A stretch of 64,000 nt of DNA from a virus (taxonomy: Duplodnaviria > Caudoviricetes). Position 1 is the first letter of the stretch. The number at the start of each line of letters is the position of its first letter. Location of the stretch: IMG/VR virus record IMGVR_UViG_3300013121_000005, positions 64,001-128,000 of that record; one strand, written 5' to 3'. Below, piece after piece: positions 1,217-58,756 of the stretch. The position numbers were made by a program, and so were the translations under genes. The notes beneath the pieces are model-generated. The model did no database searches, had not been told where the DNA came from, and saw nothing but the letters and a program-made list of their open reading frames with translations.

Positions 1217-1489
1217 ATGCTCTCCCCGGAAGAACTTCAGAATCGAATTGCGGATCTTCTTCGACGTAATCAGCGTGTCCTCAAGCGTAAGACAGAGCTT
1301 GGGGGTGAATTGAAGTCGAAGAAGGCCGAACTGGCGAACCTCGTAAAAGAGATTCAGGACGCTGGCTTTAATCCTAAGACCCTTGTAGCAGACCGAGATA
1401 AAGCCCAAGAAGAACTAGAGTCTTTGATGGATGCCTTTGAGAAGGGGTTGTTGGAAGCTGAGCAGTCCTTGGCTGATTACGATAAGTGA
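1217..1489 (+). CDS. small coiled-coil protein
   Basis: Heptad-rich, E/K/L-rich ORF; GAGG upstream of ATG 1217; fills the gap between its neighbours. Confidence 0.7.
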   Translation: MLSPEELQNRIADLLRRNQRVLKRKTELGGELKSKKAELANLVKEIQDAGFNPKTLVADRDKAQEELESLMDAFEKGLLEAEQSLADYDK

Positions 1490-1499
1490 GAGAGACAAG

Positions 1500-2756
1500 A
1501 TGAAATTCAAAGTAAATGTCACGGACTTGAATGCAGCCGTAGATGTAGCCAAGATTGTCACCCCCAAGCCCGTAACCTCTAAAGGAGGGGCTGGCTTCTT
1601 GTTTGTGGTTAAGGGGGATCGTTGTTTTGTCTACTCACGGGATACTCTCTGTGTATCCCGTGCTAGTTTCGGTATTTTCGAGGCAGACGGGGAAGGGTCA
1701 TTTGTGTACCCGGCTGAGTACATTGATTCCTTCAAGTACTTAGACGGGCACACCTGTACCTTTGAGGCGATGGCTTTGGAGGACGATAAGTTCTTAGTTC
1801 GGTACGAGGCGTCGAATGGGGCCAAATCTGAACGTATGTCCTTTAACCCCCAACTCCTCTCAACTTGTGACGAGGACTTGACAGCCACTACTACGAGTTA
1901 CGATTTCCCTTCTGCGATCCTTAGGGATGCGATTGGGGCAGCTCGCCCTTTCATGGTTAAAAGCGATCGGGGAGGAGAAGACCATCTCAAAACCCTTCAG
2001 ATTTTCGACACCTCTCGGCCTGAGTACTCCCGGGGAGATGGGAATCTGTATGCTTCCGACAGCACCCGTATGATTTGGTACTGGAGTGAAGCCTTCATGG
2101 GCAAGGGGATCTCCATCCATGGGCAACACCTTTCTTCGTTGGTGGGGTTCCTTGCGAAGAGCACGGATAAGGTCACTGTTCGTGTCGGAGATCACTTCAC
2201 TTTTGTCGAAAATGCTGAGGGTCATGTTCTGGGGTGGCCTAAGCATTACAAGATGCACCCCAAGTACGCTTACTACTCCACTGATAGTGACCTTTATGTC
2301 CTACTGGTTGATCGGGTCCCTCTTTTGGGGGCTCTTAACTACGTGAGGGGAGAGCTAGATAGCTCTAGGGACACAATCAAACTTCATTTCGACCATGCTC
2401 GTTCCGTCCTTCGGTTTGTTATCTCGGAGGGTAGCTCTAAGGCAGAGTACACCCTGCCTGTGAAAATCAAGCCTAGGGTTGTGGAAGAAGAGGGGAAGGA
2501 AGTAGTAACCCCTTGGGCAGAAGCTAGTGATTGGGCACATCCGGTAAGTGTCAATCACCTTATGGACTTGGTGCGGGAGGTTCGAGGGAATCAGGTTGAG
2601 ATTCGAGTTATTGCCTTCCAGAAGGGGTCAAAGAAGGTCGCTATGCTTCGCACTATCGACGACTTCCGACTTGATGGGCAGGGCAAGGTTGTGATTGAAG
2701 CAACAGAGGGGTCTTACCCATGCAGGGTAACACGATTCATGCCCTCGAAGGATTGA
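1500..2756 (+). CDS. DNA polymerase III beta sliding-clamp-like protein
   Basis: DnaN-like start MKFKVNVTDLNAAV, an ASDSTR motif resembling DnaN ATDxHR, ~420 aa, and a DnaX gene nearby. Confidence 0.65.
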   Translation: MKFKVNVTDLNAAVDVAKIVTPKPVTSKGGAGFLFVVKGDRCFVYSRDTLCVSRASFGIFEADGEGSFVYPAEYIDSFKYLDGHTCTFEAMALEDDKFLVRYEASNGAKSERMSFNPQLLSTCDEDLTATTTSYDFPSAILRDAIGAARPFMVKSDRGGEDHLKTLQIFDTSRPEYSRGDGNLYASDSTRMIWYWSEAFMGKGISIHGQHLSSLVGFLAKSTDKVTVRVGDHFTFVENAEGHVLGWPKHYKMHPKYAYYSTDSDLYVLLVDRVPLLGALNYVRGELDSSRDTIKLHFDHARSVLRFVISEGSSKAEYTLPVKIKPRVVEEEGKEVVTPWAEASDWAHPVSVNHLMDLVREVRGNQVEIRVIAFQKGSKKVAMLRTIDDFRLDGQGKVVIEATEGSYPCRVTRFMPSKD

Positions 2757-4534: not shown

Positions 4535-5210
4535 CGTTTTCGTTGACTATGCCCATAGGAGTCTCAATTCAAATGAGGGGGCTCGTGAGATTCTTTGGGC
4601 TCGTGGGGCTTCAGAAGAACAGCTTGCCTTGTTCAAGGTAGGGTATGTGGAGGAGGAGGGGGGCCTTCCTCCTGCGGAGTACCCAGCTCATTTTCTTGAG
4701 TGGTCTGGGAGAGGGCAAAAGCTCGCGGAGTGCTTTCTCTTCCCTTTGACGAATGGGCTTGGGGAAGTTAAGGGGTTTCAGTTTCGGCATCGAACCAAGA
4801 AGGAGTATATGGACTTCTTTTTGGTTCGATCTGAGCCCGTGTTCTTTGGGCTTGGACAAGCCTTGCCTGCTATTTGGGCTAAGGAGGAAGTAGTGTTGGT
4901 TGAGGGGGTATTTGACTTGTTCCCGACTCAACGAGTGCACTCAGGTACTGTGTCGACATTGACGGCTAAGGTAAGTGGTGGTTTACTCCGAACTCTGCGT
5001 CGGCTTGTGCGCAAGGTCTTCCTGTTCTACGATAAAGACCAATCGGGTCGGCTAGGAGCTGAGAAGTTTTTGGCTAGCCATGGTTCTGAGTTTGAAGTAG
5101 CTCGATCTATTCCCTATCCGTTTGGGGTATCTGTTAAGGACCCTGCTGATCTCTGGGAGGCTTGGGGCGATGAGCGCTTCAATCCATATCTCACGAAGCA
5201 ATTGGAGTAA
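4509..5210 (+). CDS. DnaG-like primase catalytic core (TOPRIM), without zinc-binding domain
   Basis: RG..FKVGY, FPL..G.VKGFQFR, LVEGVFD, YDKDQSG and KDPADL motifs. Confidence 0.85.
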   Translation: MPEAKGWVDVFVDYAHRSLNSNEGAREILWARGASEEQLALFKVGYVEEEGGLPPAEYPAHFLEWSGRGQKLAECFLFPLTNGLGEVKGFQFRHRTKKEYMDFFLVRSEPVFFGLGQALPAIWAKEEVVLVEGVFDLFPTQRVHSGTVSTLTAKVSGGLLRTLRRLVRKVFLFYDKDQSGRLGAEKFLASHGSEFEVARSIPYPFGVSVKDPADLWEAWGDERFNPYLTKQLE

Positions 5211-5213
5211 GTT

Positions 5214-5696
5214 ATGGCTCAAGTCTACGAAAATGCTGAAGCGGTTGAGACCATCGCGAATAGTCTGATCCCTACCCATCACCCTGACTTAGCTACTGCT
5301 AAATTTCGCTTTATTTTCAAGGAAAAAGCATCTAAGAAGGGGGGTCGTCCGGTATTGGGTACGGTTAAGAAGTCGAGTGACTTGCTCTACTTTCTTATCG
5401 ACGTTCACTACCTTGTTGAGGTCCCCCTTGAGATATGGAATACTCTGGAGGAGGCGAAGCGTGTTGCTCTAGTTGACCACTTACTGGAGCGATGCTTCGG
5501 GGAAGAATCTGAAGAGTTGGGTGGGCAGATGGTGTGGAAGATCCGTGAGCCCGAGGTACAGGAGTTTGCTTCCATTCTTCGTCGTCATGGGGCTTGGACC
5601 GAAGACCTCGTAAACTTCGTGTCAGTAGGGCAGTCTATTGACTTGGGCTATATGACTGGCGAAGAAGTCAATCGAGTTACGGTAGAAACGAACTAA
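5214..5696 (+). CDS. putative phage metallopeptidase-like protein (degenerate metal motif)
   Basis: HHPDLATAK..G.VKK..W..L...RVALVDHLL..PEVQEFASILRRHG resembles the phage putative metallopeptidase family, but the HExxH position reads HLLER. Confidence 0.6.
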   Translation: MAQVYENAEAVETIANSLIPTHHPDLATAKFRFIFKEKASKKGGRPVLGTVKKSSDLLYFLIDVHYLVEVPLEIWNTLEEAKRVALVDHLLERCFGEESEELGGQMVWKIREPEVQEFASILRRHGAWTEDLVNFVSVGQSIDLGYMTGEEVNRVTVETN

Positions 5697-5707
5697 GGGG
5701 GCTTGTT

Positions 5708-7222
5708 GTGTGGGATACCAAGTACAGACCTCTTAGGTTTTCGGATGTACTTGGACAGCCAGGCGCTGTCCAAATTCTCAAGTCTAGGTTGAGAAATGGT
5801 ACTGCGCTTGACACCAGCTACTTGTTCTGTGGGGGGCCGGGCCAAGGGAAAACAACCTTGGCCCGTATCCTTGCGAGAGCAGTACTTTGTCAACAGCTCA
5901 ACAAGGAAGATCCCGACCCGTGTAATGAGTGCGACAATTGCAGAGCGGTTTTGACAGATACCTCAACAGCCTTTGTTGAAAAGGATGCTGCTAGTCAAGG
6001 TACGATCGATCATATGCGTAGGATCGTTGAGGAGCTTCCCTTTGCGGTCTTTGGGGCGCCTAAGCGGGTCTATCTTTTTGACGAGTGCCATCGAATGAGC
6101 AAGGATGCTCAGGATGTTCTCCTCAAGCCTCTTGAGGAGAAGAAGATGGTTGGGATGTTTTGCACTACGGAGCCTGAAAAAGTACGTGGTGCAATTCGCT
6201 CACGTTGTGAGGAGTACGCCATCCGAAAGGTGACCCGGGAGGACATCCTTGTCCGAATGCGGGGGGTTCTTCAATCAGAGGGGGTCGAATTTGAGGATGA
6301 TGCGGTCCTCATTGTGATTGATTACTCCGGAGGTCATGTCCGTGACGTGTTGAACCGTCTGGAGATGGTGGCTCAGATGGGGCCGGTGACTGTAGAGAGC
6401 GTTAGGGACCATCTGAATCTTTCAGTCATTTCAACATACTATGAGATTCTCCTTAACCTCTTTAGTAATACTAAAGAGGCCCTTATCCTTATTGACAAGG
6501 CGTGTGAGCGAGTAACTCCAGAAGAAGTTGCTTCTGGCATCGCTGAAGCCGCAATGAATGCCTACCGTTTGGCTTCGGGGATGGTTGCAGACTTTACCTT
6601 TTCCGATAAGGCTTTGGGTGCTAAAGCTCACCAACTATATGGGGATGGGTTGGTTAAAATAGCTGAGCATTTTGTGCAGTCTAGGCGTAATTCAACCCAT
6701 ATTGGGTTGGTGTGTGATGTTGTAGCTCTTGCTGGGGGGATGCCCGTAGCACCTTCCCCCGCTTTTTCTGTACCCCTTTTTTCTCCTCCTTCCCCCGGTC
6801 CTTCTGCAAGTCCCCCTCCTAGCCCTTCTGCAAGTCCCCCTAGCCCTTCTGCAAGTCCCCCTAGCCCTTCTGCAAGTCCCCCCAGCTCAGGCCCTTCCCC
6901 TAACCCTCCCTCAGGCCCTGCATCTCCTGCTAGGGTTGTAGTTAGTCCGTCTGGGGCCAAATATGTCCCTCAGCCAATAGTGGCTACTGTGGGAAGGCCC
7001 GATGGAGTTGGTAACCTTTCTTCCGGGGACCCCTGTGCTCTTAGTGAGTTAGACGCTGAGGTGATTCAGGTTGGGTACAAACCGAATGGTTCCCACACTA
7101 AGAAGCAGCTTATCCATTACGGTCAGTTTCGGGCGAAGGATGGTCGTGACATCTTGCCCTCTTCAGTATGGAAGAGAGGTTTTGAGTCCCTTTGGTTGAC
7201 TCGGGGGCAAAGTGACTCCTGA
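5708..7222 (+). CDS. dnaX: DNA polymerase III gamma/tau-like clamp loader
   Basis: KYRP..F.DVLGQ, Walker A GPGQGKTT, Zn motif C..PCNECDNC, Walker B DECH, SRC arginine finger, Pro/Ser linker. Confidence 0.92.
   Translation: MWDTKYRPLRFSDVLGQPGAVQILKSRLRNGTALDTSYLFCGGPGQGKTTLARILARAVLCQQLNKEDPDPCNECDNCRAVLTDTSTAFVEKDAASQGTIDHMRRIVEELPFAVFGAPKRVYLFDECHRMSKDAQDVLLKPLEEKKMVGMFCTTEPEKVRGAIRSRCEEYAIRKVTREDILVRMRGVLQSEGVEFEDDAVLIVIDYSGGHVRDVLNRLEMVAQMGPVTVESVRDHLNLSVISTYYEILLNLFSNTKEALILIDKACERVTPEEVASGIAEAAMNAYRLASGMVADFTFSDKALGAKAHQLYGDGLVKIAEHFVQSRRNSTHIGLVCDVVALAGGMPVAPSPAFSVPLFSPPSPGPSASPPPSPSASPPSPSASPPSPSASPPSSGPSPNPPSGPASPARVVVSPSGAKYVPQPIVATVGRPDGVGNLSSGDPCALSELDAEVIQVGYKPNGSHTKKQLIHYGQFRAKDGRDILPSSVWKRGFESLWLTRGQSDS
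6800..6886 (+). repeat. in-frame 21-nt tandem repeat (PSASPPS) in DnaX linker
   Basis: ccttctgcaagtccccc at 6800, 6824, 6845 and 6866. Confidence 0.9.
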
Positions 7223-9077
7223 GTGGGTAGTTCTGGAGCTTAGCCCACAAGGAGAAGAAGAGGACCCCGAAGTTCTTCTGTCTGCGTTGAAGCGGCGTCT
7301 CCGAGTGGAAGTGGAAGTCTTTGTTCCAGCCTCGGTTTCGATTGTGGGGGACAGTCGCATATCCCATAAGTTGATTGACAACTATGTGTTTGTTCGGCGT
7401 ACCCTTAGGGACTCGGCTTACCTACAGCTAGAGGGCACGAAGTATGTTTCTTCTGTCCTGACTGCTAGAAAAGGGCGTGTCCGTCACATTGTATGTGTGA
7501 CGGACAAGGACATCGACCAGATGCGTCGCCAGATATCGGTCGAGACAGAGCAAGGTATCAATGTTGGGGACGAAGTTCAGGTAATGAGTGGCCCTTACAA
7601 GGGCATCAATGGCAGAGTCATCGAGGAAATTCCCGAGACGGATTCTGTTCAAGTATACATTCAACTCAGGTCGAAACAGGCAATTGTTACCCTCCCTCGA
7701 TCCTTTCTTTGGTTCGTCTCTAAGGAAAACAGTGCGGAGGTGCCTGTTTTCTCTCCGTTCCTCAATAAGATCATTCGGGTTCGGGAATGGGTCAAGGGGA
7801 TCAGGCCAGTAGTTCTGTGGACCTCTAAGAATTGGATTCCGATTGCGGCACAGCTTTCAAAGCATGCCCGGATTTCGGAGTGGGTTGAGCGTGGGGCCCG
7901 CCTTTTTAGGGAGCTGCAAGCTCCTTCTGTCGACTCCCTCCAGCGGAAGTACCTAAAGGTTCAGAGGCAGACAGAGCTTATTAGTAAGCTCCCTGCTTTT
8001 TTCGAGCTTTTGTCGCTAGGTCAGGGGTTAGAGAAGACTCAGTTAGTTACGGGGGCGCTTAGTGCAAAGCTAAAAGAAGTCCAACGATTTCATGACGTTA
8101 TGTCTCGTTTCGAGGCTATACAGGAGGCCGTTGGGGGTATAGAGGCAGCTCTTGTGGAATGGAGACTCGATATGGTGGAAAATCTCTTGTTCGATGGTCA
8201 TAATCTTGCCTATCGGGTTATGTATGCGTTGGGGGCAATGCGTGTACCTCTAACCGACCCTGAAGGTCAGCCTACGGGTATGATCTATGGCTTTTTGAAG
8301 AGTTTGGCAGGGTTCAAGAAGCGGTTCCCTAATGCTAAACTGCATGTAATTTGGGATGGGTCCCCTCAACGTAGGGTGCTCCTATACCAAGGCTACAAGG
8401 CTAATCGACGTAAGGCAGATGGTTCTTCGTCCTCTAACCCTCAAGCAGATACTCAGATGGCGAGGCTGCGGGGCATTCTTGGCTCTCTGGGGGTTTACCA
8501 GGCGTGCAACCAAGATGAAGAGACTGATGATGTCATTGCTTGTTTGGTCCGAGGTAAGCTCAAGGGGCAACGCAACATCATCGTTTCGACCGATCGTGAC
8601 TTCTTGCAGCTAGTCACCTACACAGACCTACTTCTAACCCCAAAAGTTGGAAATCGTCCGGAGACCCTTTACGACCGGGATAAGGTTGTGGAAGAATATG
8701 GGGTCACTCCTGACCGTATGGTTCATCTCCGTGCCCTACTCGGCGATTCGTCCGACAATATCCCAGGGGTTCCTAGGGTCCCCACAAAGGTTCTTACAGC
8801 TCTTGTGAACACACACGGAACCGTGGATGCTCTATGTGCCTCAAGTTTGGCGGGAGTTACTCCTGCTCAATATGAGAAGATTCGGGCAGCGGAAGAGCAG
8901 ATTCGTCTGAACGTTGAACTCATGACTCTTCGTACCGATCTCTCGTTCGAGGAGAGTCCAGTAGAACCAAATGCCCCTCGTGTGTCGGAGTTTTTAGGGG
9001 GTTTGAACATTCAAGCCGAGCCAATCATCGGGCCGTTTTTTCAAGAGGGTTCCCAAGGTTTCCTGAAAAGTTCCTAG
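7212..9077 (+). CDS. NusG-family (NGN+KOW) domain fused to 5'-3' exonuclease/flap endonuclease
   Basis: N-part: EWVVL..EVFVP..LIDNYVFV, and KOW motif VGDEVQVMSGPYKGING. C-part from aa ~321: LLFDGHNLAYR, WDG..R...Y.GYKANR, ETDDVIA, STDRDFLQ, LLGDSSDNIPGV. Confidence 0.85.
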   Translation: MTPEWVVLELSPQGEEEDPEVLLSALKRRLRVEVEVFVPASVSIVGDSRISHKLIDNYVFVRRTLRDSAYLQLEGTKYVSSVLTARKGRVRHIVCVTDKDIDQMRRQISVETEQGINVGDEVQVMSGPYKGINGRVIEEIPETDSVQVYIQLRSKQAIVTLPRSFLWFVSKENSAEVPVFSPFLNKIIRVREWVKGIRPVVLWTSKNWIPIAAQLSKHARISEWVERGARLFRELQAPSVDSLQRKYLKVQRQTELISKLPAFFELLSLGQGLEKTQLVTGALSAKLKEVQRFHDVMSRFEAIQEAVGGIEAALVEWRLDMVENLLFDGHNLAYRVMYALGAMRVPLTDPEGQPTGMIYGFLKSLAGFKKRFPNAKLHVIWDGSPQRRVLLYQGYKANRRKADGSSSSNPQADTQMARLRGILGSLGVYQACNQDEETDDVIACLVRGKLKGQRNIIVSTDRDFLQLVTYTDLLLTPKVGNRPETLYDRDKVVEEYGVTPDRMVHLRALLGDSSDNIPGVPRVPTKVLTALVNTHGTVDALCASSLAGVTPAQYEKIRAAEEQIRLNVELMTLRTDLSFEESPVEPNAPRVSEFLGGLNIQAEPIIGPFFQEGSQGFLKSS

Positions 9078-9107
9078 TTAACCAAATGGACGTGGGAGGA
9101 GAACGCG

Positions 9108-9722
9108 ATGGGTGGGTATGTCATTTCCGTTGATCCCGCAGAACTAGCCAATCGGTTCTCTACCCCTGCAAAAGAATTTGAGGAAGAGGAGGAGAAAGTC
9201 AGTTCAACGGCGATTCCTCTGGACTATGAAAGTCAGATCGAACCCCTGTTGTGTCGAATCCCTGAACGTGAAGCGGATCTGATATCCCTCTACTTCATTC
9301 AAAAGAAGCGTCAGGCGGATATTGCAGAGATTTTTGGGGTGACTCAGGCTGCAATTAGCTACCGTCTCGATCGTGGTCTCCAACGAATCCGATTTCTCTT
9401 GTCAATCCCTCAGGTCACTGAAGAGGAAATGCGAGAGGTTTTACCTGAGGTGCCCTTTCGGCCTATTGATGTGGACATTCTGATTGGAATGTGGGAAACA
9501 ACCTGTCAATCAGAAGTCGCAACTCGGTTGGGGCTTACTCAGGGTCGAGTGAGACATCGGTTCTTTGGGGCAGTGAAGACTCTTGGGAAGCGGGCTGAGG
9601 AGGATGAGCGATTCGTCCCTTACAGCAAGGTCTTTTCTGCTATCGCTTCCAAGAAGTTCAATATTCTGCGTGAGGTCAGGTTACCTCAGTGGGCTAATCG
9701 AGGTGGTGACGGCTGTTTTTAG
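9108..9722 (+). CDS. sigma-70 region-4-like tandem HTH protein (possible late transcription factor)
   Basis: RIPEREADLISLYF..KRQADIAEIFGVTQAAIS and a second HTH QSEVATRLGLTQGRVR; strong GGAGG RBS. Confidence 0.7.
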   Translation: MGGYVISVDPAELANRFSTPAKEFEEEEEKVSSTAIPLDYESQIEPLLCRIPEREADLISLYFIQKKRQADIAEIFGVTQAAISYRLDRGLQRIRFLLSIPQVTEEEMREVLPEVPFRPIDVDILIGMWETTCQSEVATRLGLTQGRVRHRFFGAVKTLGKRAEEDERFVPYSKVFSAIASKKFNILREVRLPQWANRGGDGCF

Positions 9723-9755
9723 GTAGCGGGGTGGCGAGGCTAGGGTTTCCCAGTT

Positions 9756-9765
9756 TCTTCTTATG
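9756..9765 (+). promoter_or_regulatory. putative late-promoter motif TCTTCTTATG
   Basis: The identical 10-mer recurs at 26220 and 40293, each 14-32 nt upstream of a start codon; this copy marks the start of the structural region. Confidence 0.5.
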
Positions 9766-9787
9766 CCTTGGGCTTTGAAGAGGAACC

Positions 9788-10687
9788 GTGCTCGTCACAA
9801 GCCTACAGAGTCACGATTACAAGTTCGTGTTTGACACCCCTGCTGGCAGGTGGAAGTGGGTAACTCGCCTTGATGTGTCGCAGGCAACCCCCTCCTTTTC
9901 TGTAAGGGACATCGTTTCACCTTACGGGCTACTTCGAGATTCAATTCCGATTCCGGGTGAGATCATCACTGCGATGGCGGAATCGATTACGGAACTTCGG
10001 TCTAACTTTACGCCCTCTATCTTGGTAGGGCCTCCCCCAGCTCTTACCTTTACGGTGGATGAGGGGCGTGGTTTTAGTCCGGGTGTAGCTGTAACCCTCA
10101 CGAATAATGGGACGTATGGTTCCATTCTTGGGGCAACGCTTACGAAGTCGGCGTCGTACTTGCGAGTCACTCCAGCTAGTGTGGGGGGTCTTGCCATCAA
10201 TGAGGCAGGGCAGTTTACTGTTGAGGTGGACTCCACCTCTCTCCTAGCTACTTCGAGCCCGTACAATGAGACTGTTACAGTACAGGACTCGGCAGCGAGT
10301 AATAGCCCCCAGGTCTTTCCGGTTACTGTCGTAGTTAGGCCGAAGGCTACAATTACTGTGACCCCTACTGCGCGGTCTTTTAGCGTAGTCAAACCCCTCA
10401 CCGGAGCGTTTCCGGCAATCGCGGACCAGACCTTTGTGGTTCAGAATACGGGGCCTGCTGGGTCGGTATTGAGTTTTCAAATTCAGAAGCTTACGGGCTT
10501 GTCTGATTGGTTGGTGGCCTTTTTGCCAGCTTCAGATACTTTGAGTTCGGGGCAGAGCGATACCATTACGGTTAGTGTACAGCCTCCAAGTACAATGTTG
10601 CCTGGGACTTACACTGAAAAGCTGAGGGTTTCTGGGTATAGCACGAACTCTTACGTGGATGTTGATATTCAACTTGTGATTACGTGA
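9788..10687 (+). CDS. Ig-like/BACON-type beta-sandwich virion protein
   Basis: Two T/V/S-rich beta domains (..YLRVTPASVGGL.., ..SDWLVAFLPASDTLSSGQS..PGTYTE). Confidence 0.65.
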   Translation: MLVTSLQSHDYKFVFDTPAGRWKWVTRLDVSQATPSFSVRDIVSPYGLLRDSIPIPGEIITAMAESITELRSNFTPSILVGPPPALTFTVDEGRGFSPGVAVTLTNNGTYGSILGATLTKSASYLRVTPASVGGLAINEAGQFTVEVDSTSLLATSSPYNETVTVQDSAASNSPQVFPVTVVVRPKATITVTPTARSFSVVKPLTGAFPAIADQTFVVQNTGPAGSVLSFQIQKLTGLSDWLVAFLPASDTLSSGQSDTITVSVQPPSTMLPGTYTEKLRVSGYSTNSYVDVDIQLVIT

Positions 10688-10694
10688 GGGCAGG

Positions 10695-10961
10695 ATGTCT
10701 AGGGACTACGACCTTGGTTTGTTTGAAGTTCAGGGCTCTTCTGGGTTGGATTCCTTCTTTGCCAGAGAGCCTGAAATTGTGACTCCTCGTTCTCGGCGTA
10801 AGATTGCGTCGATTCAGGACCTTTCAGCTTTTGTCCGGATCGGAGCTGACCAGTTGGTTCATAAGGCAGATAGAGACCTTTGGGCAATCAAGCGTGATGC
10901 GCAAGGTACCCTATCCATTGAACGACAGTTTGACGATAATGGTCAACCTCTACGCTTTTGA
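10695..10961 (+). CDS. hypothetical protein
   Basis: RBS present, tiles the operon; contains RKIA|S. Confidence 0.7.
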   Translation: MSRDYDLGLFEVQGSSGLDSFFAREPEIVTPRSRRKIASIQDLSAFVRIGADQLVHKADRDLWAIKRDAQGTLSIERQFDDNGQPLRF

Positions 10962-10971
10962 GGGGTTTTGA

Positions 10972-12324
10972 GTGAACACTCGGCAAAGAGTTAGGGTAGT
11001 TGTTGCAAGGGAGGGAGGTGCGCCTCTTCCTCTTGATTCTGATGGGTCGTCCTCTGGGAAGCGAGCGATCCCGTCTAAGCATCGCTTTGACCCTAAGGCT
11101 TTAAAGTCTCTAGCGAGAGCCCTTTTCTCGGCTAGTGTGGCTTTGGGGCATTCTGTTACAGCGTACAAGGTATTTGCTCGTATCAAGTCGGCCAGCATTT
11201 CTCCTGATGGGATGCTTGGGGGTCGAGGGTACGTTCTGCAAGTTAAAGAGGTTCGGGCGAAGCTTCAGCAGGCATGCGAGCTTCTTTCTGCTGTTACTGA
11301 TACGATGCATGATGAGATTAATGCTCCGCATTGGAAGCCTAAGCTTGGTGAGCTTGGTGCAAATGATGCGGAGGATATCCTTGAGCTTCTTGGTGAAGCG
11401 GACGATGTTCTGAAAGACCCTGAGGCATTTGGCGACAAGGGTCTGGAACAGGTAGAGGAAAAGAATGATGGCCCTAAGGGTACTTCTAACGCTTTGAAGT
11501 GGAAGGACACTGAAGAGGGATCTCAAATGCCTGGGGGCGAGGAATCTCGCCCTCCCAAGGAAACCTCTAAGTTGGCCAATAGTTCGGTCCCCGTGACAAC
11601 TCTTCCGGGACCCCGAGTGGATCATTTGGATCGTGGGGAGCAGCTTGGTCCAGGGGGGTCTTATAATAGGGATGAGCCCCCGGTAGAAGATGCTTGGGGT
11701 CTTCCAACTGGGGATGAGATTTACGAAGGGTCAAGTTCTTTGACCGGGACCTGGGGTGTTCAGCTCGCTGCTGAAGGGGCTTGGGGTGCAGCGGCCTTGC
11801 CTGACGGCAAAGGGGATGGGACAGCTACCCAGGCAGATGATTTTGGTCTTGGTTACGGGGCGAAGGGTCAGGGTTCTCAAGGGTATGGTACCCGTAGCCC
11901 TGATGGTCATGGTGTGTGGGGCCCTGCAAGTGGTTTGCCCCATGACCCTAAGACTCCAACCCGAGACCCAGAGGAAGGTGCTACGCCTTACCTGGATGGG
12001 ATTGGGCGTAATGTATGGGCGTGTGATTCTGGTTGCTCTTGTTCCCAATCCAAGTTGCCTTTTGACGGACCTGACGAGGTTGCTCGATCAGACTACTACA
12101 GGGAGGATCGGGGCAACCAGTTCAATGTGAACCGTTCTGCTTGGCGTCCTGTGGAGTCTGACTCTACTCTACCTGGGGATCAGGGCTCTGCGTACAACTT
12201 TGACCGAGATTTACCTGATGTTGGGGGTAAGCTGGAACGACAGGATGTGCCCTATGTCAAGTACGATTGGGGTACCCATCAGTATCGCCATGATAAGCAG
12301 GATCTTTGGGGCGTGACAAAGTAA
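10972..12324 (+). CDS. hypothetical protein with disordered G/D/P-rich C-terminal half
   Basis: 450-aa ORF with GAGG RBS; repeated S-x-LP-x-D elements. Confidence 0.75.
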   Translation: MNTRQRVRVVVAREGGAPLPLDSDGSSSGKRAIPSKHRFDPKALKSLARALFSASVALGHSVTAYKVFARIKSASISPDGMLGGRGYVLQVKEVRAKLQQACELLSAVTDTMHDEINAPHWKPKLGELGANDAEDILELLGEADDVLKDPEAFGDKGLEQVEEKNDGPKGTSNALKWKDTEEGSQMPGGEESRPPKETSKLANSSVPVTTLPGPRVDHLDRGEQLGPGGSYNRDEPPVEDAWGLPTGDEIYEGSSSLTGTWGVQLAAEGAWGAAALPDGKGDGTATQADDFGLGYGAKGQGSQGYGTRSPDGHGVWGPASGLPHDPKTPTRDPEEGATPYLDGIGRNVWACDSGCSCSQSKLPFDGPDEVARSDYYREDRGNQFNVNRSAWRPVESDSTLPGDQGSAYNFDRDLPDVGGKLERQDVPYVKYDWGTHQYRHDKQDLWGVTK

Positions 12325-15358: not shown

Positions 15359-18300
15359 ATGCCCCCGAAAGTTAAGAAATCGGCGGGTATCTCACACCTT
15401 ATCCGAAGTGCGGGGCATAAAGCTCGTGCAATTGCGGAAGAGCGGTCAGATCAAGGTGATGTTACAGAGATCACTGTAGACGGCCGACAAACCCGCATCT
15501 TCAACGTCCTGAACTACGTCGAGTCCCCGTGGGGGCTGAACATGACGCTGTACCCTGTACAGCGTTTCATTGTGAAGCTTTACTACAACTTACCTCTCGA
15601 TGACAAACTGCCCGAAGAGACGAATCGACGGATTCGGATCTCGGACATGTTCAACACCAAGACCCTATACACCTTCACCGAGAAGGAGTACCTGCAATAC
15701 CTCTACAACGAGGGGCGCTGCAATATCGGGGAGCAGGACCACATGCGGAGGCAACTGACGCTTCCCATTGGGAGAAGGGCGGGGAAGTGTTGCTTACATG
15801 GTACGATATGTGCTACATCGGAGGGGTTCCGAGAAATTCAAGACCTTGGGGACCCAAACGGTCCTGAGTATCAGCCTCTTAAAGTCGGGGTTGCTCAAGA
15901 GGGATCAAAGAGGTCAACGTCTGCTTACTTCTATAATGGAGGGGTGAGAGACACGATCCGGGTTCGTAGTCGGTGTGGGTATGAGATTGAGGGTACCCCC
16001 AATCATCGTATCCGTGTGATGGCCGAGGACGGGACCATTCAGTGGCGGTTCCTTGGAGACATGCGGGTAGGGGACCGAATTGGAATCCACCGTAAGACGG
16101 ATCTTTGGGCGTCCGCCCCTTTTGAGACCTCGGCGTACCATCCCCCCTTCAGTGGCAGAGAGATCGAACTCCCAGAAGTCATTAATGAAAGGTGGGCTAC
16201 TCTGCTCGGGGTGCTTGTGGGGGATGGTTCTTGGAACTACCCTTCAACGTTGGAGGTTACGGTTGGCCCTTACCAGGAGTGGCTCACACAGGTTGAGGAA
16301 CTGTTTCGTAGCACTTTAGGTCGTGTGCGAGTGATCAAGGAATCCCATCGTGATGTTTTTAGAGTCCGATGTTATTCCCTCAGAGCCCGACAGTTTTTTT
16401 CGGGTATTGGCTACACACTCAACGTAGCCAGTGATGCTAAGCGGATCCCGTGGGTTATTTGGCGTTCTCCGAAGTCGGTTGTTGCAGCATTTCTTCGAGG
16501 TCTCTTCGAGACTGATGGGGGTGTTGAGCGGGGCGGTCGTATCGTTTCCTTTTCCACCGCCAGTCAGAAGCTCGCCAGTGAGCTTCAACTTCTCCTCTTG
16601 AACTTTGGAATCGTCTCTCGGGTCAAACCTCGTTTCAACAAGCGGTACTCGAAGACGTACTATCATTTGACAGTACTTGGCGCGGAGTCTGTTAGGCTTT
16701 TCTCCAGTGAGATCGGCTTCCTAAGCGAGCGAAAAAACGCCCTTTTGCGGGCTCATATCACCAAGGGGGATCTCGGGAACAAGAGCCCTACGGAGTCAAT
16801 CCCATTTCAACGTGTATGGTGTCGTCGGCTTCTTGAGTCAGTCCCAAAAAACACTGGGGACCATGCGAGAGGTAAAGCGCTGGGTTGGAGGAGAAGCCTT
16901 CTCCGTGCAGCTCTTGGTAACGTCATCAAGAGCACGACGGAAGACCTGTCTTATCCTCGTCTTCGCGCTGCTCTTGCAGTGGCTCGTGAAGTTGGGGCTT
17001 CACAGGAAGCTGTCGCCCATTTTGAAACCTTACTTGGAGCTGGTTACTTTTACGACGAAGTAACCGAGATTACTCCAAGTCGTGGGAGGGTCTACGACCT
17101 TACGGTCCCCGATGGGGAGTCGTTCGTCGCCAACGGCATGACGAACCACAACACGACCCTATCCGCCATTTTTGCAAGCTACGAGCTGTATCGGCTTCTT
17201 TCCTTGGGGAATCCCCAGGACTATTATGGGCTTCCGAATGGCAACCGTATCCAGATTATCTCGGTTGCAACCGACAAGGACCAGGCGGGTCTGCTCTTCA
17301 ATGACGTGACCTCGCACATGGCGAAGTGCGAGTTCTTCAAGCCGTACATCGCGAACAACACCCTCTCCTACGTTCAGCTTCGGACCCCCTACGACATCGA
17401 GAGATACGGTCCGACGGTCCGCCACGAGAGCGGCAAGTTCGCTAGTTTCAACGGTAAAGCGTCTATCCGTGTTACCTTCAAGGCGAGCATCTCGAAGGGT
17501 CTTCGTGGCTCGGGTAACGTCGTCATTATCCTTGACGAGATCGCCCACTTCCAAGAAAAGGGGACTAGCTCAGCCAAGGACATCTACGACGCCATCACCC
17601 CGTCCGCTGCTGCTTTCTCACCCAAGGATCCGAACGATTCAACACGTCCCGTCGGTCCTGTTGAAAGCCGGATCATCTGTATCTCGTCGCCCCTCAACAA
17701 GTCAGGTAAGTTTTACGAACTGTACCACCTCGGCATGAGCCGAGCTGCTGGCTCGGAGAACATGCTGGTCATCCAGGCTCCAACCTGGGAGGTCAACCCG
17801 ACGATCGAGTCCTCCTACTACCGCGAGAAGTACCACGAGGACCCAGCCGTCTTCATGACGGAGCACGGGGCCCTGTTTTCGGATCGGGTCAGGGGTTGGA
17901 TTGAACGCGAACAGGACCTTGTTGATTGCATCCGAACTGATCTTCGTCCAAAAAGTTACGGGCCTCCTCGGTTCCCTCATCAGATTGGGGTTGACGTGGG
18001 TATGGTGGGTGACGGTACGACGGTCGCCATTACCCATTGTGAGGGGCCGAACATCGTCCTCGATTACCATGAGGCTTGGTACGCGGGCGTCCCGTGGAAG
18101 AAGACGAACCCTCACTTGACGGCTCCCTTGGTGGAGTACGCCAAGACGTTAGAGTCGGTTGATCGTCTTGATTTTGACGAGATTGCTAACTGGATTTTCG
18201 AGCTGTCGAAGCGATTTTACCTGACTTCTGGGTTGTTTGACCGATGGAATGGTCTCCCGTTGGAGCAGGCTCTTCACAAGAAGGGTCTTAAGCAGTTTCG

Positions 18301-18718
18301 CAGCGAGTTTTTCACTAGAGACGACAGAAGCCGCATGTTCCAGGCCATGAAGCTTATGTTGTTTGATCGTAGGGTTGTGTTGTATGACTGGCCTTTACCA
18401 AAGGAGGGGGAGGCACAGTCAAAGCACTCTCCTTTGATCGAGGAGATTTTGAGCCTCCAGGCTCAACAAATGGCTCGTAACCAGATTTTGGTTGAGGCCC
18501 CTAAGATTGCTGGGGCTCATGATGACATTTCAGATGCTTTGGTTCGAGCAGTTTGGCAGTCTCTTGAGAGGATTTCGACCCAGAAAATAACGGCCCCCCT
18601 AGGGGATTTCCATCCCCAGTCTCGTGGTATTAGCCTGCCTCATTATCAGTTGATGCGTGCTAGGAAGCATGGGATCCATAGGGATCGTCTTGTACCTCGT
18701 TCCTTGAGGAGGAGATGA
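15359..18718 (+). CDS. terL: terminase large subunit (intein-interrupted)
   Basis: LYPVQR, Walker A GRRAGK|T split by the intein, Walker B IILDEIAH, ISSP coupling motif, nuclease GVD..D..HDDISDA; spliced length 664 aa. Confidence 0.93.
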   Translation: MPPKVKKSAGISHLIRSAGHKARAIAEERSDQGDVTEITVDGRQTRIFNVLNYVESPWGLNMTLYPVQRFIVKLYYNLPLDDKLPEETNRRIRISDMFNTKTLYTFTEKEYLQYLYNEGRCNIGEQDHMRRQLTLPIGRRAGKCCLHGTICATSEGFREIQDLGDPNGPEYQPLKVGVAQEGSKRSTSAYFYNGGVRDTIRVRSRCGYEIEGTPNHRIRVMAEDGTIQWRFLGDMRVGDRIGIHRKTDLWASAPFETSAYHPPFSGREIELPEVINERWATLLGVLVGDGSWNYPSTLEVTVGPYQEWLTQVEELFRSTLGRVRVIKESHRDVFRVRCYSLRARQFFSGIGYTLNVASDAKRIPWVIWRSPKSVVAAFLRGLFETDGGVERGGRIVSFSTASQKLASELQLLLLNFGIVSRVKPRFNKRYSKTYYHLTVLGAESVRLFSSEIGFLSERKNALLRAHITKGDLGNKSPTESIPFQRVWCRRLLESVPKNTGDHARGKALGWRRSLLRAALGNVIKSTTEDLSYPRLRAALAVAREVGASQEAVAHFETLLGAGYFYDEVTEITPSRGRVYDLTVPDGESFVANGMTNHNTTLSAIFASYELYRLLSLGNPQDYYGLPNGNRIQIISVATDKDQAGLLFNDVTSHMAKCEFFKPYIANNTLSYVQLRTPYDIERYGPTVRHESGKFASFNGKASIRVTFKASISKGLRGSGNVVIILDEIAHFQEKGTSSAKDIYDAITPSAAAFSPKDPNDSTRPVGPVESRIICISSPLNKSGKFYELYHLGMSRAAGSENMLVIQAPTWEVNPTIESSYYREKYHEDPAVFMTEHGALFSDRVRGWIEREQDLVDCIRTDLRPKSYGPPRFPHQIGVDVGMVGDGTTVAITHCEGPNIVLDYHEAWYAGVPWKKTNPHLTAPLVEYAKTLESVDRLDFDEIANWIFELSKRFYLTSGLFDRWNGLPLEQALHKKGLKQFRSEFFTRDDRSRMFQAMKLMLFDRRVVLYDWPLPKEGEAQSKHSPLIEEILSLQAQQMARNQILVEAPKIAGAHDDISDALVRAVWQSLERISTQKITAPLGDFHPQSRGISLPHYQLMRARKHGIHRDRLVPRSLRRR
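15788..17152 (+). mobile_element. intein with LAGLIDADG homing endonuclease (455 aa)
   Basis: Starts with C (CCLHGT), block B GTPNHRI, LAGLIDADG motifs LLGVLVGDG and FLRGLFETDGG, block F/G VYDLTV..FVANGMTNHN, Thr at +1. Confidence 0.95.
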
Positions 18719-58730: not shown

Positions 58731-58756
58731 CGCTCCTCGGTTTGAAAGAGAGAAGC

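What the first reader, a model, noticed from the sequence alone, without database searches (positions are those of the whole stretch)
7212..9077. NusG-family transcription factor fused in frame to a 5'-3' exonuclease/flap endonuclease
Seen: one uninterrupted 621-aa ORF with NGN+KOW (aa ~1-170), a ~150-aa helical linker and a full PolI/T5-FEN-like nuclease with acidic active-site motifs. It sits between dnaX and a sigma4-like gene. There is also a GGAG RBS at 8161 before an in-frame ATG at 8172, so long and short isoforms are possible. Known: NGN domains bind elongating RNA polymerase; FEN-family enzymes remove RNA from RNA:DNA hybrids and flaps. Inference: the fusion tethers a nuclease to RNAP (R-loop removal, torpedo-like termination or host shut-off) or couples late transcription to replication. 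I do not know of a characterised fusion like this.
Basis: partly seen in the sequence, partly recalled or inferred. Interest (0 to 1): 0.75.

Follow-up and report, generated by a model that had tools for sequence, protein, structure and literature searches.

The report
Huge-phage NusG-like factor fused to flap nuclease
An uncultured huge phage joins a copy of the RNA-polymerase-riding factor NusG to its only DNA flap nuclease in one 621-residue protein; relatives keep the same two parts either fused or as neighbouring genes, which points to an undescribed and testable link between phage transcription and DNA replication.

Summary
ORF 7212-9077 (+) encodes NGN + KOW (aa 1-170), a helical linker of about 145 aa with no known fold, and a Pol I-type 5' nuclease with all eight acidic metal ligands. 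It lies between a clamp-loader gene and a double sigma-region-4 gene.

The fusion is real and conserved. More than 120 protein clusters at 39-63% identity cover the full length, on contigs up to 529 kb. It is not obligatory:
- A sister clade of the same syntenic phage lineage has the NusG-like and FEN genes adjacent but separate, without a linker.
- Inside the fused clade the gene has re-split at least twice, each time at the codon equivalent to Met321.
- That codon can start translation in 29 of 31 fused genes and often follows a Shine-Dalgarno-like motif (GGAG-N7-ATG here). A short FEN-only isoform is therefore plausible.

The record has no phage RNA polymerase, no RNase H and no second FEN. 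Its family-A DNA polymerase lacks a 5' nuclease.

Best reading: a specialised NusG paralogue on host RNA polymerase, physically coupled to the phage's replicative flap nuclease. The purpose of the coupling is inferred, not shown. The torpedo and host shut-off ideas have no support.

This scan found the same family earlier on other genomes. I found no paper describing it.

The parts
7212..9077 (+). Whole ORF, 621 aa: NGN-KOW, helical linker, 5' flap nuclease (P0001)
7212..7547 (+). NGN domain (aa 1-112). Carries the family motifs W5-V-V-L-E-L, F37-x-P39 and Y58-V-F60-V.
   Evidence: Pfam NusG; 24.2 bits, over the cut-off; profile against PDB NusG; NCBIfam nusG hit in 60 of 60 members; model strands and helices
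7557..7721 (+). KOW domain (aa 116-170), a five-strand barrel. The invariant loop L152-R153-S154-K155 sits where NusG has its Rho/S10-contacting I-F-G-R.
   Evidence: Pfam KOW above the cut-off; alignment to NusG KOW; invariant columns
7737..8171 (+). Helical linker (aa 176-320): five helices, the last about 46 residues long. Weakly conserved, with W193, W224 and R299 nearly invariant. No known fold.
   Evidence: only generic coiled-coil matches
8161..8174 (+). Internal Shine-Dalgarno-like GGAG (8161-8164), then ATG 8172-8174 (Met321): candidate start of a FEN-only isoform of about 301 aa
   Evidence: The aligned codon is ATG, GTG or TTG in 29 of 31 fused genes, and an SD-like motif precedes 14 of those 29, against 14-17% background. 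Fission relatives start FEN at this codon.
8172..9029 (+). Pol I-type 5'-3' exonuclease / flap endonuclease (aa 321-606). Acidic ligands D328, D382, E437, D439, D440, D461, D463, D512 and D515 are present.
   Evidence: Pfam; alignment to the Taq 5' nuclease motifs; invariant columns; Foldseek FenA 1e-18
9009..9074 (+). C-terminal tail with two conserved short motifs: I-Q-x-E-P-I-I-x-x-F-F and a terminal G-F-x-K-[ST]-[SG]. Candidate docking peptides; function untested.
   Evidence: F609 nearly invariant
5708..7222 (+). Upstream neighbour: clamp-loader ATPase (DNA_pol3_delta2 / AAA). Overlaps the ORF start by 11 nt.
   Evidence: syntenic in all relatives
9108..9722 (+). Downstream neighbour: 204-aa protein with sigma-70 region-4-like HTH(s)
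   Evidence: syntenic in all relatives, including the split clade

Best explanation
The gene encodes a phage-specific NusG paralogue (NGN + KOW), joined through a helical linker of about 145 aa to the phage's only Pol I-type 5' flap nuclease.

Most likely mechanism:
- The NGN domain docks on the clamp helices of the host RNA polymerase. The phage has sigma-like factors but no recognisable polymerase of its own. As in other specialised NusG paralogues, this would make transcription of the very long, co-directional phage gene arrays processive.
- The attached nuclease is the same enzyme that removes RNA primers and flaps during phage replication. On RNAP it would be held at the transcription complex, where it can act on RNA:DNA hybrids, nicks and flaps at the interface of transcription and replication.
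- A second product, FEN alone from Met321, probably serves ordinary Okazaki-fragment processing.

Shown: the architecture, catalytic completeness, conservation of the fusion, the split forms, the conserved internal start codon and the gene context.
Inferred: RNAP binding, and what the coupling is for.
For: Architecture and family:
- Architecture.
- The NGN-KOW module is as conserved as the nuclease (column identity about 0.6-0.7, against about 0.3 in the linker).
- It matches NusG-family models full length in 60 of 60 members and solved NusG at 1.4e-9.
- The invariant F60 in 'Y-V-F-V' aligns with the NusG 'Y-V-(L/F)-V' strand. In RfaH the Phe at that position (F56) is required for RNAP binding (PMC7593976). 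That the positions are equivalent rests on my recollection of the RfaH sequence.

Predicted RNAP docking:
- NGN (aa 1-115, with alignment) against E. coli beta' 201-350 gave weak support: score 0.39 (runs 0.36, 0.39, 0.55), best control 0.00.
- In calibration the mark was reached by 58 of 80 solved complexes and 2 of 110 mismatched pairs. At 0.60 or under it was reached by only 7 of those 80 and by both mismatches that passed.
- The runs share at least 93% of contacts, and the partner's pLDDT is at least 74.
- NusG-RNAP complexes are solved, so the pass may reflect likeness only. E. coli is a stand-in host.

Nuclease and genome inventory:
- All acidic ligands of the nuclease align with Taq D18, D67, E117, D119, D120, D142, D144 and the GDxSDN motif, and are invariant. 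The Taq numbering is from memory; the motifs are in the alignment.
- The 363-kb record has one FEN and one NGN and no RNase H1.
- It has a family-A polymerase, and no second PF02739 5'-nuclease hit anywhere in the record.
- It has no Pfam-detectable RNAP but does have sigma-like genes.

Conservation of the fusion:
- It is kept in more than 120 clusters down to 39% identity and in 30 of 34 sampled lineages of its clade.
- It appears in 53 of the top 150 representatives of the NGN-KOW family among 1.84 billion proteins.
- L055 may be an independent second fusion without the linker.

Context and isoform:
- The gene sits at the border between replication genes and the packaging/structural genes; the terminase is at 15359.
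- Precedent for a phage FEN needed in transcription: the T5 D15 nuclease is essential for late gene expression (PMC12673091).
- Short isoform.
Against: - No measurement shows RNAP binding. The host is unknown, and the complex prediction is only a weak pass with a stand-in polymerase.
- The covalent link is dispensable. The sister clade (22 rows) has separate genes, and two sublineages re-split the fusion.
- The whole block of about 14 genes is syntenic across these phages, so adjacency of the two genes alone is not evidence that they work together.
- L085 keeps the NusG-like gene next to the sigma-4 gene with no FEN between them.
- The record is only about 76% complete, so absences (RNAP, RNase H, a second FEN) are provisional.
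- The linker has no recognisable fold or partner.
Confidence: 0.55

Rival explanations
1. Two functionally independent proteins that happen to share a frame. A phage NusG-like antiterminator and the replicative FEN are ancestrally adjacent, translationally coupled genes. In this clade the stop codon was lost and the long product is merely tolerated. The working units are the NusG-like part (with a helical tail) and FEN made from the internal start.
For: - The sister clade has separate genes overlapping by 4-8 nt.
- Fission recurred within the fused clade, each time at the Met321 codon and with its own SD.
- The start-capable codon is conserved in 29 of 31 fused genes. Every Val there is GTG and the one Leu is TTG, although only 27% of Val codons are GTG and 22% of Leu codons are TTG. 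SD-like motifs are enriched upstream.
- The whole block is syntenic, so adjacency is uninformative.
Against: - The open frame across about 145 linker codons is maintained in 30 of 34 sampled lineages, down to about 37% identity, and in more than 120 clusters. A neutral read-through would be expected to break more often.
- The linker is predicted as confident helices with three nearly invariant residues. It is retained on the NusG half after fission, so it is a selected part and not junk.
- L055 may be an independent second fusion.
Confidence: 0.25
2. The NGN-KOW module has been recruited as a replisome adaptor. It binds a phage replication protein or DNA rather than RNA polymerase, and the protein is simply an Okazaki-fragment nuclease with a targeting domain.
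For: - The gene lies among a clamp-like gene, clamp loader and Toprim genes.
- The FEN is the only one in the record.
- The KOW loop that contacts Rho/S10 in NusG is replaced by an invariant L-R-S-K. This implies a different, conserved partner.
Against: - To my knowledge, NGN domains have no known function other than binding multisubunit RNAP at the clamp helices and gate loop (see PMC7593976).
- The RNAP-contact strand motif is invariant here.
- There is a weak predicted fit to the beta' clamp helices, with zero-scoring controls.
- The next gene is sigma-like, and L085 keeps the NGN-KOW plus sigma-4 pair without a FEN.
Confidence: 0.1
3. RNAP-tethered 'torpedo' or host shut-off nuclease. The FEN degrades nascent RNA from its 5' end to terminate transcription, or attacks host transcription complexes.
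For: Only the architecture (a nuclease on an RNAP-binding module) and the analogy with Xrn2/Spt5 and RNase J torpedoes (PMC11695829 and PMC8501993, listed).
Against: - The nuclease is a Pol I-type, structure-specific 5' nuclease. Its known substrates are flaps, nicks and RNA in hybrids, not free single-stranded RNA (established knowledge).
- It is the phage's sole FEN, and the phage's PolA lacks one, so it is needed for replication.
- Nothing in the sequence distinguishes host from phage transcription complexes.
Confidence: 0.05

Closest known systems
Specialised NusG paralogues (RfaH, LoaP, UpxY, ActX/TaA) and housekeeping NusG/Spt5
   Same: - Two-domain NGN + KOW architecture with a beta-barrel KOW.
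- Best family hits are nusG, UpxY, LoaP and RfaH.
- Encoded by a mobile element with very long co-directional operons, the setting in which these paralogues act as processive antiterminators.
- Lacks NusG's Phe-Gly Rho-contact loop, as RfaH does.
   Different: - Scores far below every curated cut-off (39-44 bits against 100-145).
- Forms its own small family: 491 hits at E <= 0.001 among 1.84 billion representatives.
- Carries a helical extension of about 145 aa and a complete nuclease. No known NusG paralogue is fused to an enzyme, and none was found in the NusG review PMC7819879.
Bacteriophage T5 D15 flap endonuclease (and T7 gp6 / Pol I 5' nuclease)
   Same: - Stand-alone Pol I-type 5' nuclease of a phage whose family-A polymerase lacks that domain.
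- T5 D15 is essential for late gene expression (PMC12673091), the only documented link between a phage FEN and transcription.
   Different: - T5 D15 has no RNAP-binding domain, and how it supports late transcription is not settled.
- Here the link is physical (a fusion) or genomic (adjacent genes).
Chimallivirus Rhc (RNase H-clamp) of phage Goslar
   Same: A FEN/RNase H-family nuclease of a jumbo phage fused to a non-catalytic targeting domain. It is reported to serve both replication and late transcription, probably by resolving R-loops (PMC13648698).
   Different: - Rhc's partner domain is derived from a sliding clamp and binds the phage DNA polymerase.
- Those phages use their own RNAPs inside a phage nucleus.
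- Here the partner domain is NusG-like, and no phage RNAP is detected.
T4 replication-coupled late transcription (gp45 clamp, gp44/62 loader, gp33, gp55)
   Same: Similar gene neighbourhood: clamp-like protein, clamp loader, then small sigma-like protein(s) at the border with the late genes. The concept is the same: host RNAP tied to replicating, nicked DNA.
   Different: T4 has no NusG-like protein or FEN in this system. Clamp binding by the C-terminal tail of this protein is only a guess from conserved motifs.

Membership tests
NusG/Spt5 family | NGN domain (alpha/beta fold) recognisable by sequence and structure | tested here: met
   Pfam NusG at 20.6 bits for the protein and 24.2 bits, over the cut-off, in the six-frame search. 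Profile against PDB NusG: 1.4e-9 over positions 6-165. Foldseek 6gov_G: 6.7e-9.
NusG/Spt5 family | C-terminal KOW beta-barrel | tested here: met
   Pfam KOW at 26.1 bits, above 22.3. Five strands at 121-170 in the model.
NusG/Spt5 family | NGN binds the RNAP clamp helices / gate loop | tested here: inconclusive
   ESMFold2 complex with E. coli beta' 201-350 gave weak support: 0.39 against a best control of 0.00. The polymerase is a stand-in, and similar complexes are solved. This is not a binding measurement.
Housekeeping NusG (TIGR00922 equivalog) | Score above the curated equivalog cut-off, and the KOW loop (I-F-G-R) that contacts Rho and S10 | tested here: not met
   39.4 bits against a cut-off of 135.7. 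The loop is an invariant L-R-S-K. The role of the loop is taken from PMC7593976.
RfaH / LoaP / UpxY subfamilies | Score above the curated subfamily cut-offs | tested here: not met
   UpxY 43.7 against 100, LoaP 29 against 125, RfaH 25.8 against 144.5. The protein works like them at most; it is not a member.
RfaH / LoaP / UpxY subfamilies | Recruitment by a specific DNA or RNA element (ops-like) | not tested
   I did not search for a recruitment element.
Pol I-type 5'-3' exonuclease / FEN (PF02739 + PF01367) | Both domains above the gathering score | tested here: met
   101.9 bits against 34.3, and 62.1 bits against 40.
Pol I-type 5'-3' exonuclease / FEN (PF02739 + PF01367) | Full set of acidic metal ligands for both metal sites (unlike ExoIX/Xni) | tested here: met
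   D328, D382, E437, D439, D440, D461, D463, D512 and D515 align with the Taq motifs DGH, FD, E-x-DD, D-x-D and GD-x-SDN. They are invariant or nearly so in 90 sequences.
Pol I-type 5'-3' exonuclease / FEN (PF02739 + PF01367) | Flap endonuclease / 5' exonuclease activity | not testable with these tools
   Needs an enzyme assay.
T4-type sliding-clamp-coupled transcription factors | C-terminal clamp-binding peptide shared with the polymerase and other clamp clients | tested here: inconclusive
   The conserved C-terminal motifs exist. Only one other ORF in the 363-kb record ends in a similar G-F-x-K tail. No clamp docking was modelled.

The most novel reading that the evidence does not exclude
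The NusG-FEN protein, together with the adjacent double sigma-region-4 protein and the clamp/clamp-loader genes, forms a replication-coupled transcription system of a new type. The NGN domain holds host RNAP. The FEN domain and its conserved C-terminal tail recognise nicks, flaps or the sliding clamp on newly replicated phage DNA. Late transcription would then be licensed only on replicating genomes. This would be a NusG-based functional analogue of the T4 gp45/gp33/gp55 system, and a mechanistic explanation for why T5 needs its FEN for late genes.
Probability: 0.15. Interest if true: 0.85.

Novelty: new variant of a known kind. Interest (0 to 1): 0.62.

Why it matters
- NusG/Spt5 is the only transcription factor conserved in all domains of life, and its known partners are Rho, the ribosome and RNA-processing factors. 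A conserved fusion, or a conserved gene pair, with a replication nuclease would add DNA-flap and R-loop processing to the activities that NusG proteins bring to RNA polymerase.
- It would give a direct handle on how huge phages coordinate transcription and replication. Their genomes are hundreds of kilobases long, and in this 64-kb window every main gene lies on one strand.
- It offers a possible molecular explanation for the old, unexplained requirement of the T5 flap nuclease for late transcription.
- The natural series is a ready-made experimental design for asking what the tether contributes: separate genes, fused with a linker, re-split with the linker, plus a conserved internal start.
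- The phage NGN-KOW family, fused or not, is itself an uncharacterised lineage of NusG paralogues.

Tried and rejected
- GenBank phages (tblastn): 493 records match the FEN part only, and none covers the full length. No cultured relative is available.
- Linker fold: the Atlas search gave only TM < 0.5. VIA-align against 48,161 PDB chains, using a linker-only model (pLDDT 85, pTM 0.34), gave only generic long-helix and coiled-coil matches with Z <= 5.9. No fold or partner can be named.
- RNA evidence: no RNA holder is listed for this stretch. Only small DNA contigs from freshwater and activated-sludge metagenomes could be laid.
- Promoter and terminator scan of 5000-11000: nothing above shuffled expectation, and no internal promoter ahead of Met321.
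- Shared C-terminal docking tag: only one other ORF in the genome ends in a similar way. I dropped the idea of a shared tag.
- Host identification: not achieved, so E. coli beta' was used as a stand-in.
- Torpedo and host shut-off readings: rejected for lack of any supporting feature.
- Literature: no paper in the searched library describes a NusG-nuclease fusion or a NusG homologue of huge phages.
- Two paper searches failed on term syntax.
Full report
**1. Observation.**

The window lies at 64001-128000 of a 363,484-bp IMG/VR virus record that is estimated to be 76% complete. All of its main ORFs are on the + strand.

ORF 7212-9077 is open for 621 codons. Pfam finds four domains:
- 5_3_exonuc_N at aa 325-497, 3.9e-29.
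- 5_3_exonuc at aa 498-582, 7e-17.
- KOW at aa 118-148, above the cut-off.
- NusG NGN at aa 5-105, just below the cut-off for the protein. In the six-frame genome search it scores 24.2 bits, above the cut-off.

PHROGs gives 'exonuclease' and 'transcription antiterminator'.

The AlphaFold2 model, built from 90 homologues, has mean pLDDT 87. It shows an NGN fold (1-112), a five-strand KOW barrel (121-170), a disordered hinge (173-181), five helices (182-316) and a FEN fold (322-606). Its pTM of 0.56 says the relative positions of the domains are not fixed. Foldseek finds M. smegmatis FenA (1e-18), Taq and T5 nucleases, and E. coli NusG in the lambda-N antitermination complex (6.7e-9).

So are the neighbours: clamp loader at 5708-7222 and sigma70_r4 at 9108-9722.

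**2. The nuclease is complete, and it is the phage's only one.**

The alignment with Taq polymerase's 5' nuclease places D328, D382, E437, D439, D440, D461, D463, D512 and D515 on the motifs that hold the two metal sites. These columns are invariant or nearly so in 90 homologues.

What the record does and does not contain:
- One PF02739 hit and one NGN hit, both in this ORF.
- No RNase H1.
- No family-B or Pol III alpha polymerase.
- One family-A polymerase at 202.5 kb. It carries no 5' nuclease domain, since there is no second PF02739 hit.

So, as in T5 and T7, the Pol I-type 5' nuclease is detached from the polymerase. Here it is attached to a NusG-like module instead.

**3. The N-terminal module is a true but divergent NusG-family member.**

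- A profile of 60 N-terminal segments matches T. maritima NusG over NGN+KOW (1.4e-9) and other NusGs.
- All 60 members hit TIGR nusG, 57 hit UpxY, 56 LoaP and 48 RfaH. All score far below the curated cut-offs.
- Against 1.84 billion cluster representatives the profile finds only 491 proteins at E <= 0.001 and 284 at E <= 1e-10. This is a small, separate lineage, not a captured host nusG.
- The module is as conserved as the nuclease.
- The strand motif Y58-V-F60-V is invariant. It aligns with NusG 'Y-V-(L/F)-V'. In RfaH the Phe at that position (F56) is needed for RNAP binding (PMC7593976). The positional equivalence rests on my memory of the RfaH sequence.
- The KOW loop that in NusG contacts Rho and S10 (I-F-G-R) is an invariant L-R-S-K here. 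This argues for a conserved partner other than Rho.

No RNAP is detectable in the record with PF00562, PF00623 or PF00940. The record does carry sigma-like genes. A factor acting on host RNAP is therefore coherent.

A complex prediction of NGN (1-115) with E. coli beta' 201-350 gave weak support:
- Score 0.39 (runs 0.36, 0.39, 0.55), best control 0.00.
- In calibration the mark was reached by 58 of 80 solved complexes and 2 of 110 mismatches. At 0.60 or under it was reached by only 7 of the 80 and by both mismatches that passed.
- The runs share at least 93% of contacts, and the partner's pLDDT is at least 74.
- NusG-RNAP complexes are solved and E. coli is a stand-in, so this shows likeness and not binding.

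**4. Relatives: fused, never fused, and re-split.**

More than 120 clusters at 39-63% identity cover 92-100% of the protein, with lengths of 593-682 aa, on contigs up to 512 kb. IMG/VR gave 77 loci. I scanned them with domain HMMs that I built and with the window's neighbouring proteins.

The block g3406, g3908, Toprim, metallopeptidase, clamp loader, [NGN-KOW, FEN], sigma-4, g9788, g10695, g10972, g12306 is syntenic throughout.

A maximum-likelihood tree of NGN-KOW + FEN (59 rows; quick search, SH-aLRT support) shows:
- (a) A clade of 34 rows (support 99) that has the linker. Thirty rows are fused and four are split.
- (b) A sister clade of 22 rows (support 100) in which a NusG-like gene of 180-200 aa sits directly upstream of a FEN gene of about 335 aa. 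The two often overlap by 4-8 nt, and there is no linker.
- (c) Outside these, L044 and L045 (split) and L055. L055 is a 474-aa fusion without a linker on a long branch. It may be an independent fusion, but its NGN is seen only by my family HMM at 4e-6.

The four split rows inside clade (a) fall in two places: (L038, L086, L087) and L043. That means at least two secondary fissions. More split forms exist among close relatives, such as the P0127 contig with 309 + 290 aa.

In every fission the linker stays with the NusG half (287-320 aa; 380 aa in L038, where it runs on past the FEN start). FEN begins at the codon equivalent to Met321, with its own GGAG or GGGAG in L043, L086 and L038 and a weaker AAGG in L087. 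The break is made by an ATGA overlap, a nearby stop or a frameshift.

Among the top 150 representatives of the NGN-KOW family:
- 53 are fused.
- 11 are NGN-KOW + linker.
- 86 are NGN-KOW only; 64 of the 150 are under 270 aa.

**5. Internal start.**

In 31 distinct fused genes the codon aligned with Met321 is ATG, GTG or TTG in 29. This column has the highest share of start-capable codons in the whole alignment (93%). That is only slightly above a conserved structural Met of the FEN domain (90%), but position 321 sits in a poorly conserved stretch.

Every Val at this position is GTG (4 of 4) and the one Leu is TTG. Overall only 27% of Val codons are GTG and 22% of Leu codons are TTG. An SD-like tetramer lies at -16 to -4 in 14 of the 29, against 14-17% for other in-frame positions. 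The sequences are related, so these counts overstate independence.

Most genes in the window have GGAG-type ribosome-binding sites. A FEN-only isoform is therefore plausible, but it has not been shown.

**6. Linker.**

The linker is weakly conserved, with mean column identity 19%. W193, W224 and R299 are nearly invariant. It is confidently helical, but the arrangement of the helices is uncertain (pTM 0.34). It has no informative structural match. Its last helix, of about 46 residues, resembles coiled-coil segments. Oligomerisation or partner binding is possible but untested.

**7. Reading.**

The safest statement is this. A lineage of huge phages, with genomes of roughly 350-530 kb, carries its own NusG-like factor next to its only flap nuclease. 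The pair sits at the border between the replication genes (a clamp-like protein at 1431-2756, a clamp loader and a Toprim protein) and a sigma-4-like gene followed by the packaging genes (the terminase is at 15359). One large clade, including this phage, has welded the two genes together through a helical linker.

Going by what NGN domains are known to do, the N-terminal part should ride host RNAP and act like the specialised antiterminators of long operons. This fits a genome whose genes run in one direction for tens of kilobases.

What the nuclease does there is inferred. My preferred idea is that it removes RNA:DNA hybrids and flaps where co-directional transcription and replication meet. 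A related idea is that it couples late transcription to replicating DNA. Two precedents make a dual role credible:
- The T5 D15 FEN is essential for late gene expression (PMC12673091).
- The chimallivirus RNase H-clamp protein Rhc serves both replication and late transcription (PMC13648698).

Against over-reading:
- The tether is dispensable in many relatives.
- Synteny of the whole block weakens the argument from adjacency.
- One relative (L085) has the NusG-like and sigma-4 genes with no FEN between them.

**8. Novelty.**

Both domains are well known. I found the fusion, and indeed any NusG homologue of huge phages, in no paper of the searched library.

Earlier agents of this scan reported the same family on other genomes, with the same verdict: confirmed, and partly supported.
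- The never-fused sister clade.
- The repeated fissions at Met321.
- The codon-level evidence for an internal start.
- The divergent KOW loop.
- The point that the phage's PolA lacks a 5' nuclease.
- The T5 and Rhc parallels.

I rate it a new variant of a known kind, of good but not top interest, because the mechanism remains inferred.

Noticed in passing
window 15359-18718 (+): The 1119-aa large terminase (PHROG 17415 and 9) is interrupted by an intein with a LAGLIDADG homing-endonuclease domain (Pfam Intein_splicing and LAGLIDADG_3).
   Followed up: no
L025:1278-3992, L030:1228-4002, L035:1221-3959: In some relatives the clamp-loader gene upstream of the fusion is about 900 aa instead of about 500 aa. 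This suggests an insertion there, possibly an intein.
   Followed up: no
window 58742-60835 (+): A 697-aa protein with an ART-PolyVal ADP-ribosyltransferase domain (2.5e-12). It is followed, from 60869, by a large UvrD-type helicase that runs off the window.
   Followed up: no
window 1431-2756 (+): A 441-aa protein with a weak match to the phage 'DNA polymerase processivity factor' family (phrog_947, 1e-4). It is a candidate sliding clamp at the head of the conserved replication block.
   Followed up: no
window 9009-9074; C-termini of the FEN genes in L044-L076: Fused-clade FENs end in I-Q-P-E-x-(I/L)-(I/L)-x-x-F-F ... G-F-x-K-T-S. Many FENs of the split clade instead end in P-(D/E)-(F/W)-L-x-D-(I/V) at the very C-terminus. 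Both look like short docking peptides, possibly for the sliding clamp. Only one other ORF of the genome (324669-325040) has a similar G-F-x-K tail.
   Followed up: partly
L085:3974-5129: One relative has the NusG-like gene directly followed by the sigma-4-like gene, with no FEN between them. The FEN may have moved or been lost.
   Followed up: no
G000:C1:202572-203786 (outside the window): A family-A DNA polymerase in a 935-aa open frame (1.7e-71). There is no 5' nuclease domain anywhere else in the record.
   Followed up: partly
window 8167: Contigs more than 99% identical, from freshwater and activated-sludge metagenomes of two studies, cover parts of the gene. Two of them read C for T at 8167 (Leu319 to Pro), which matches the family consensus Pro at that position.
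   Followed up: partly
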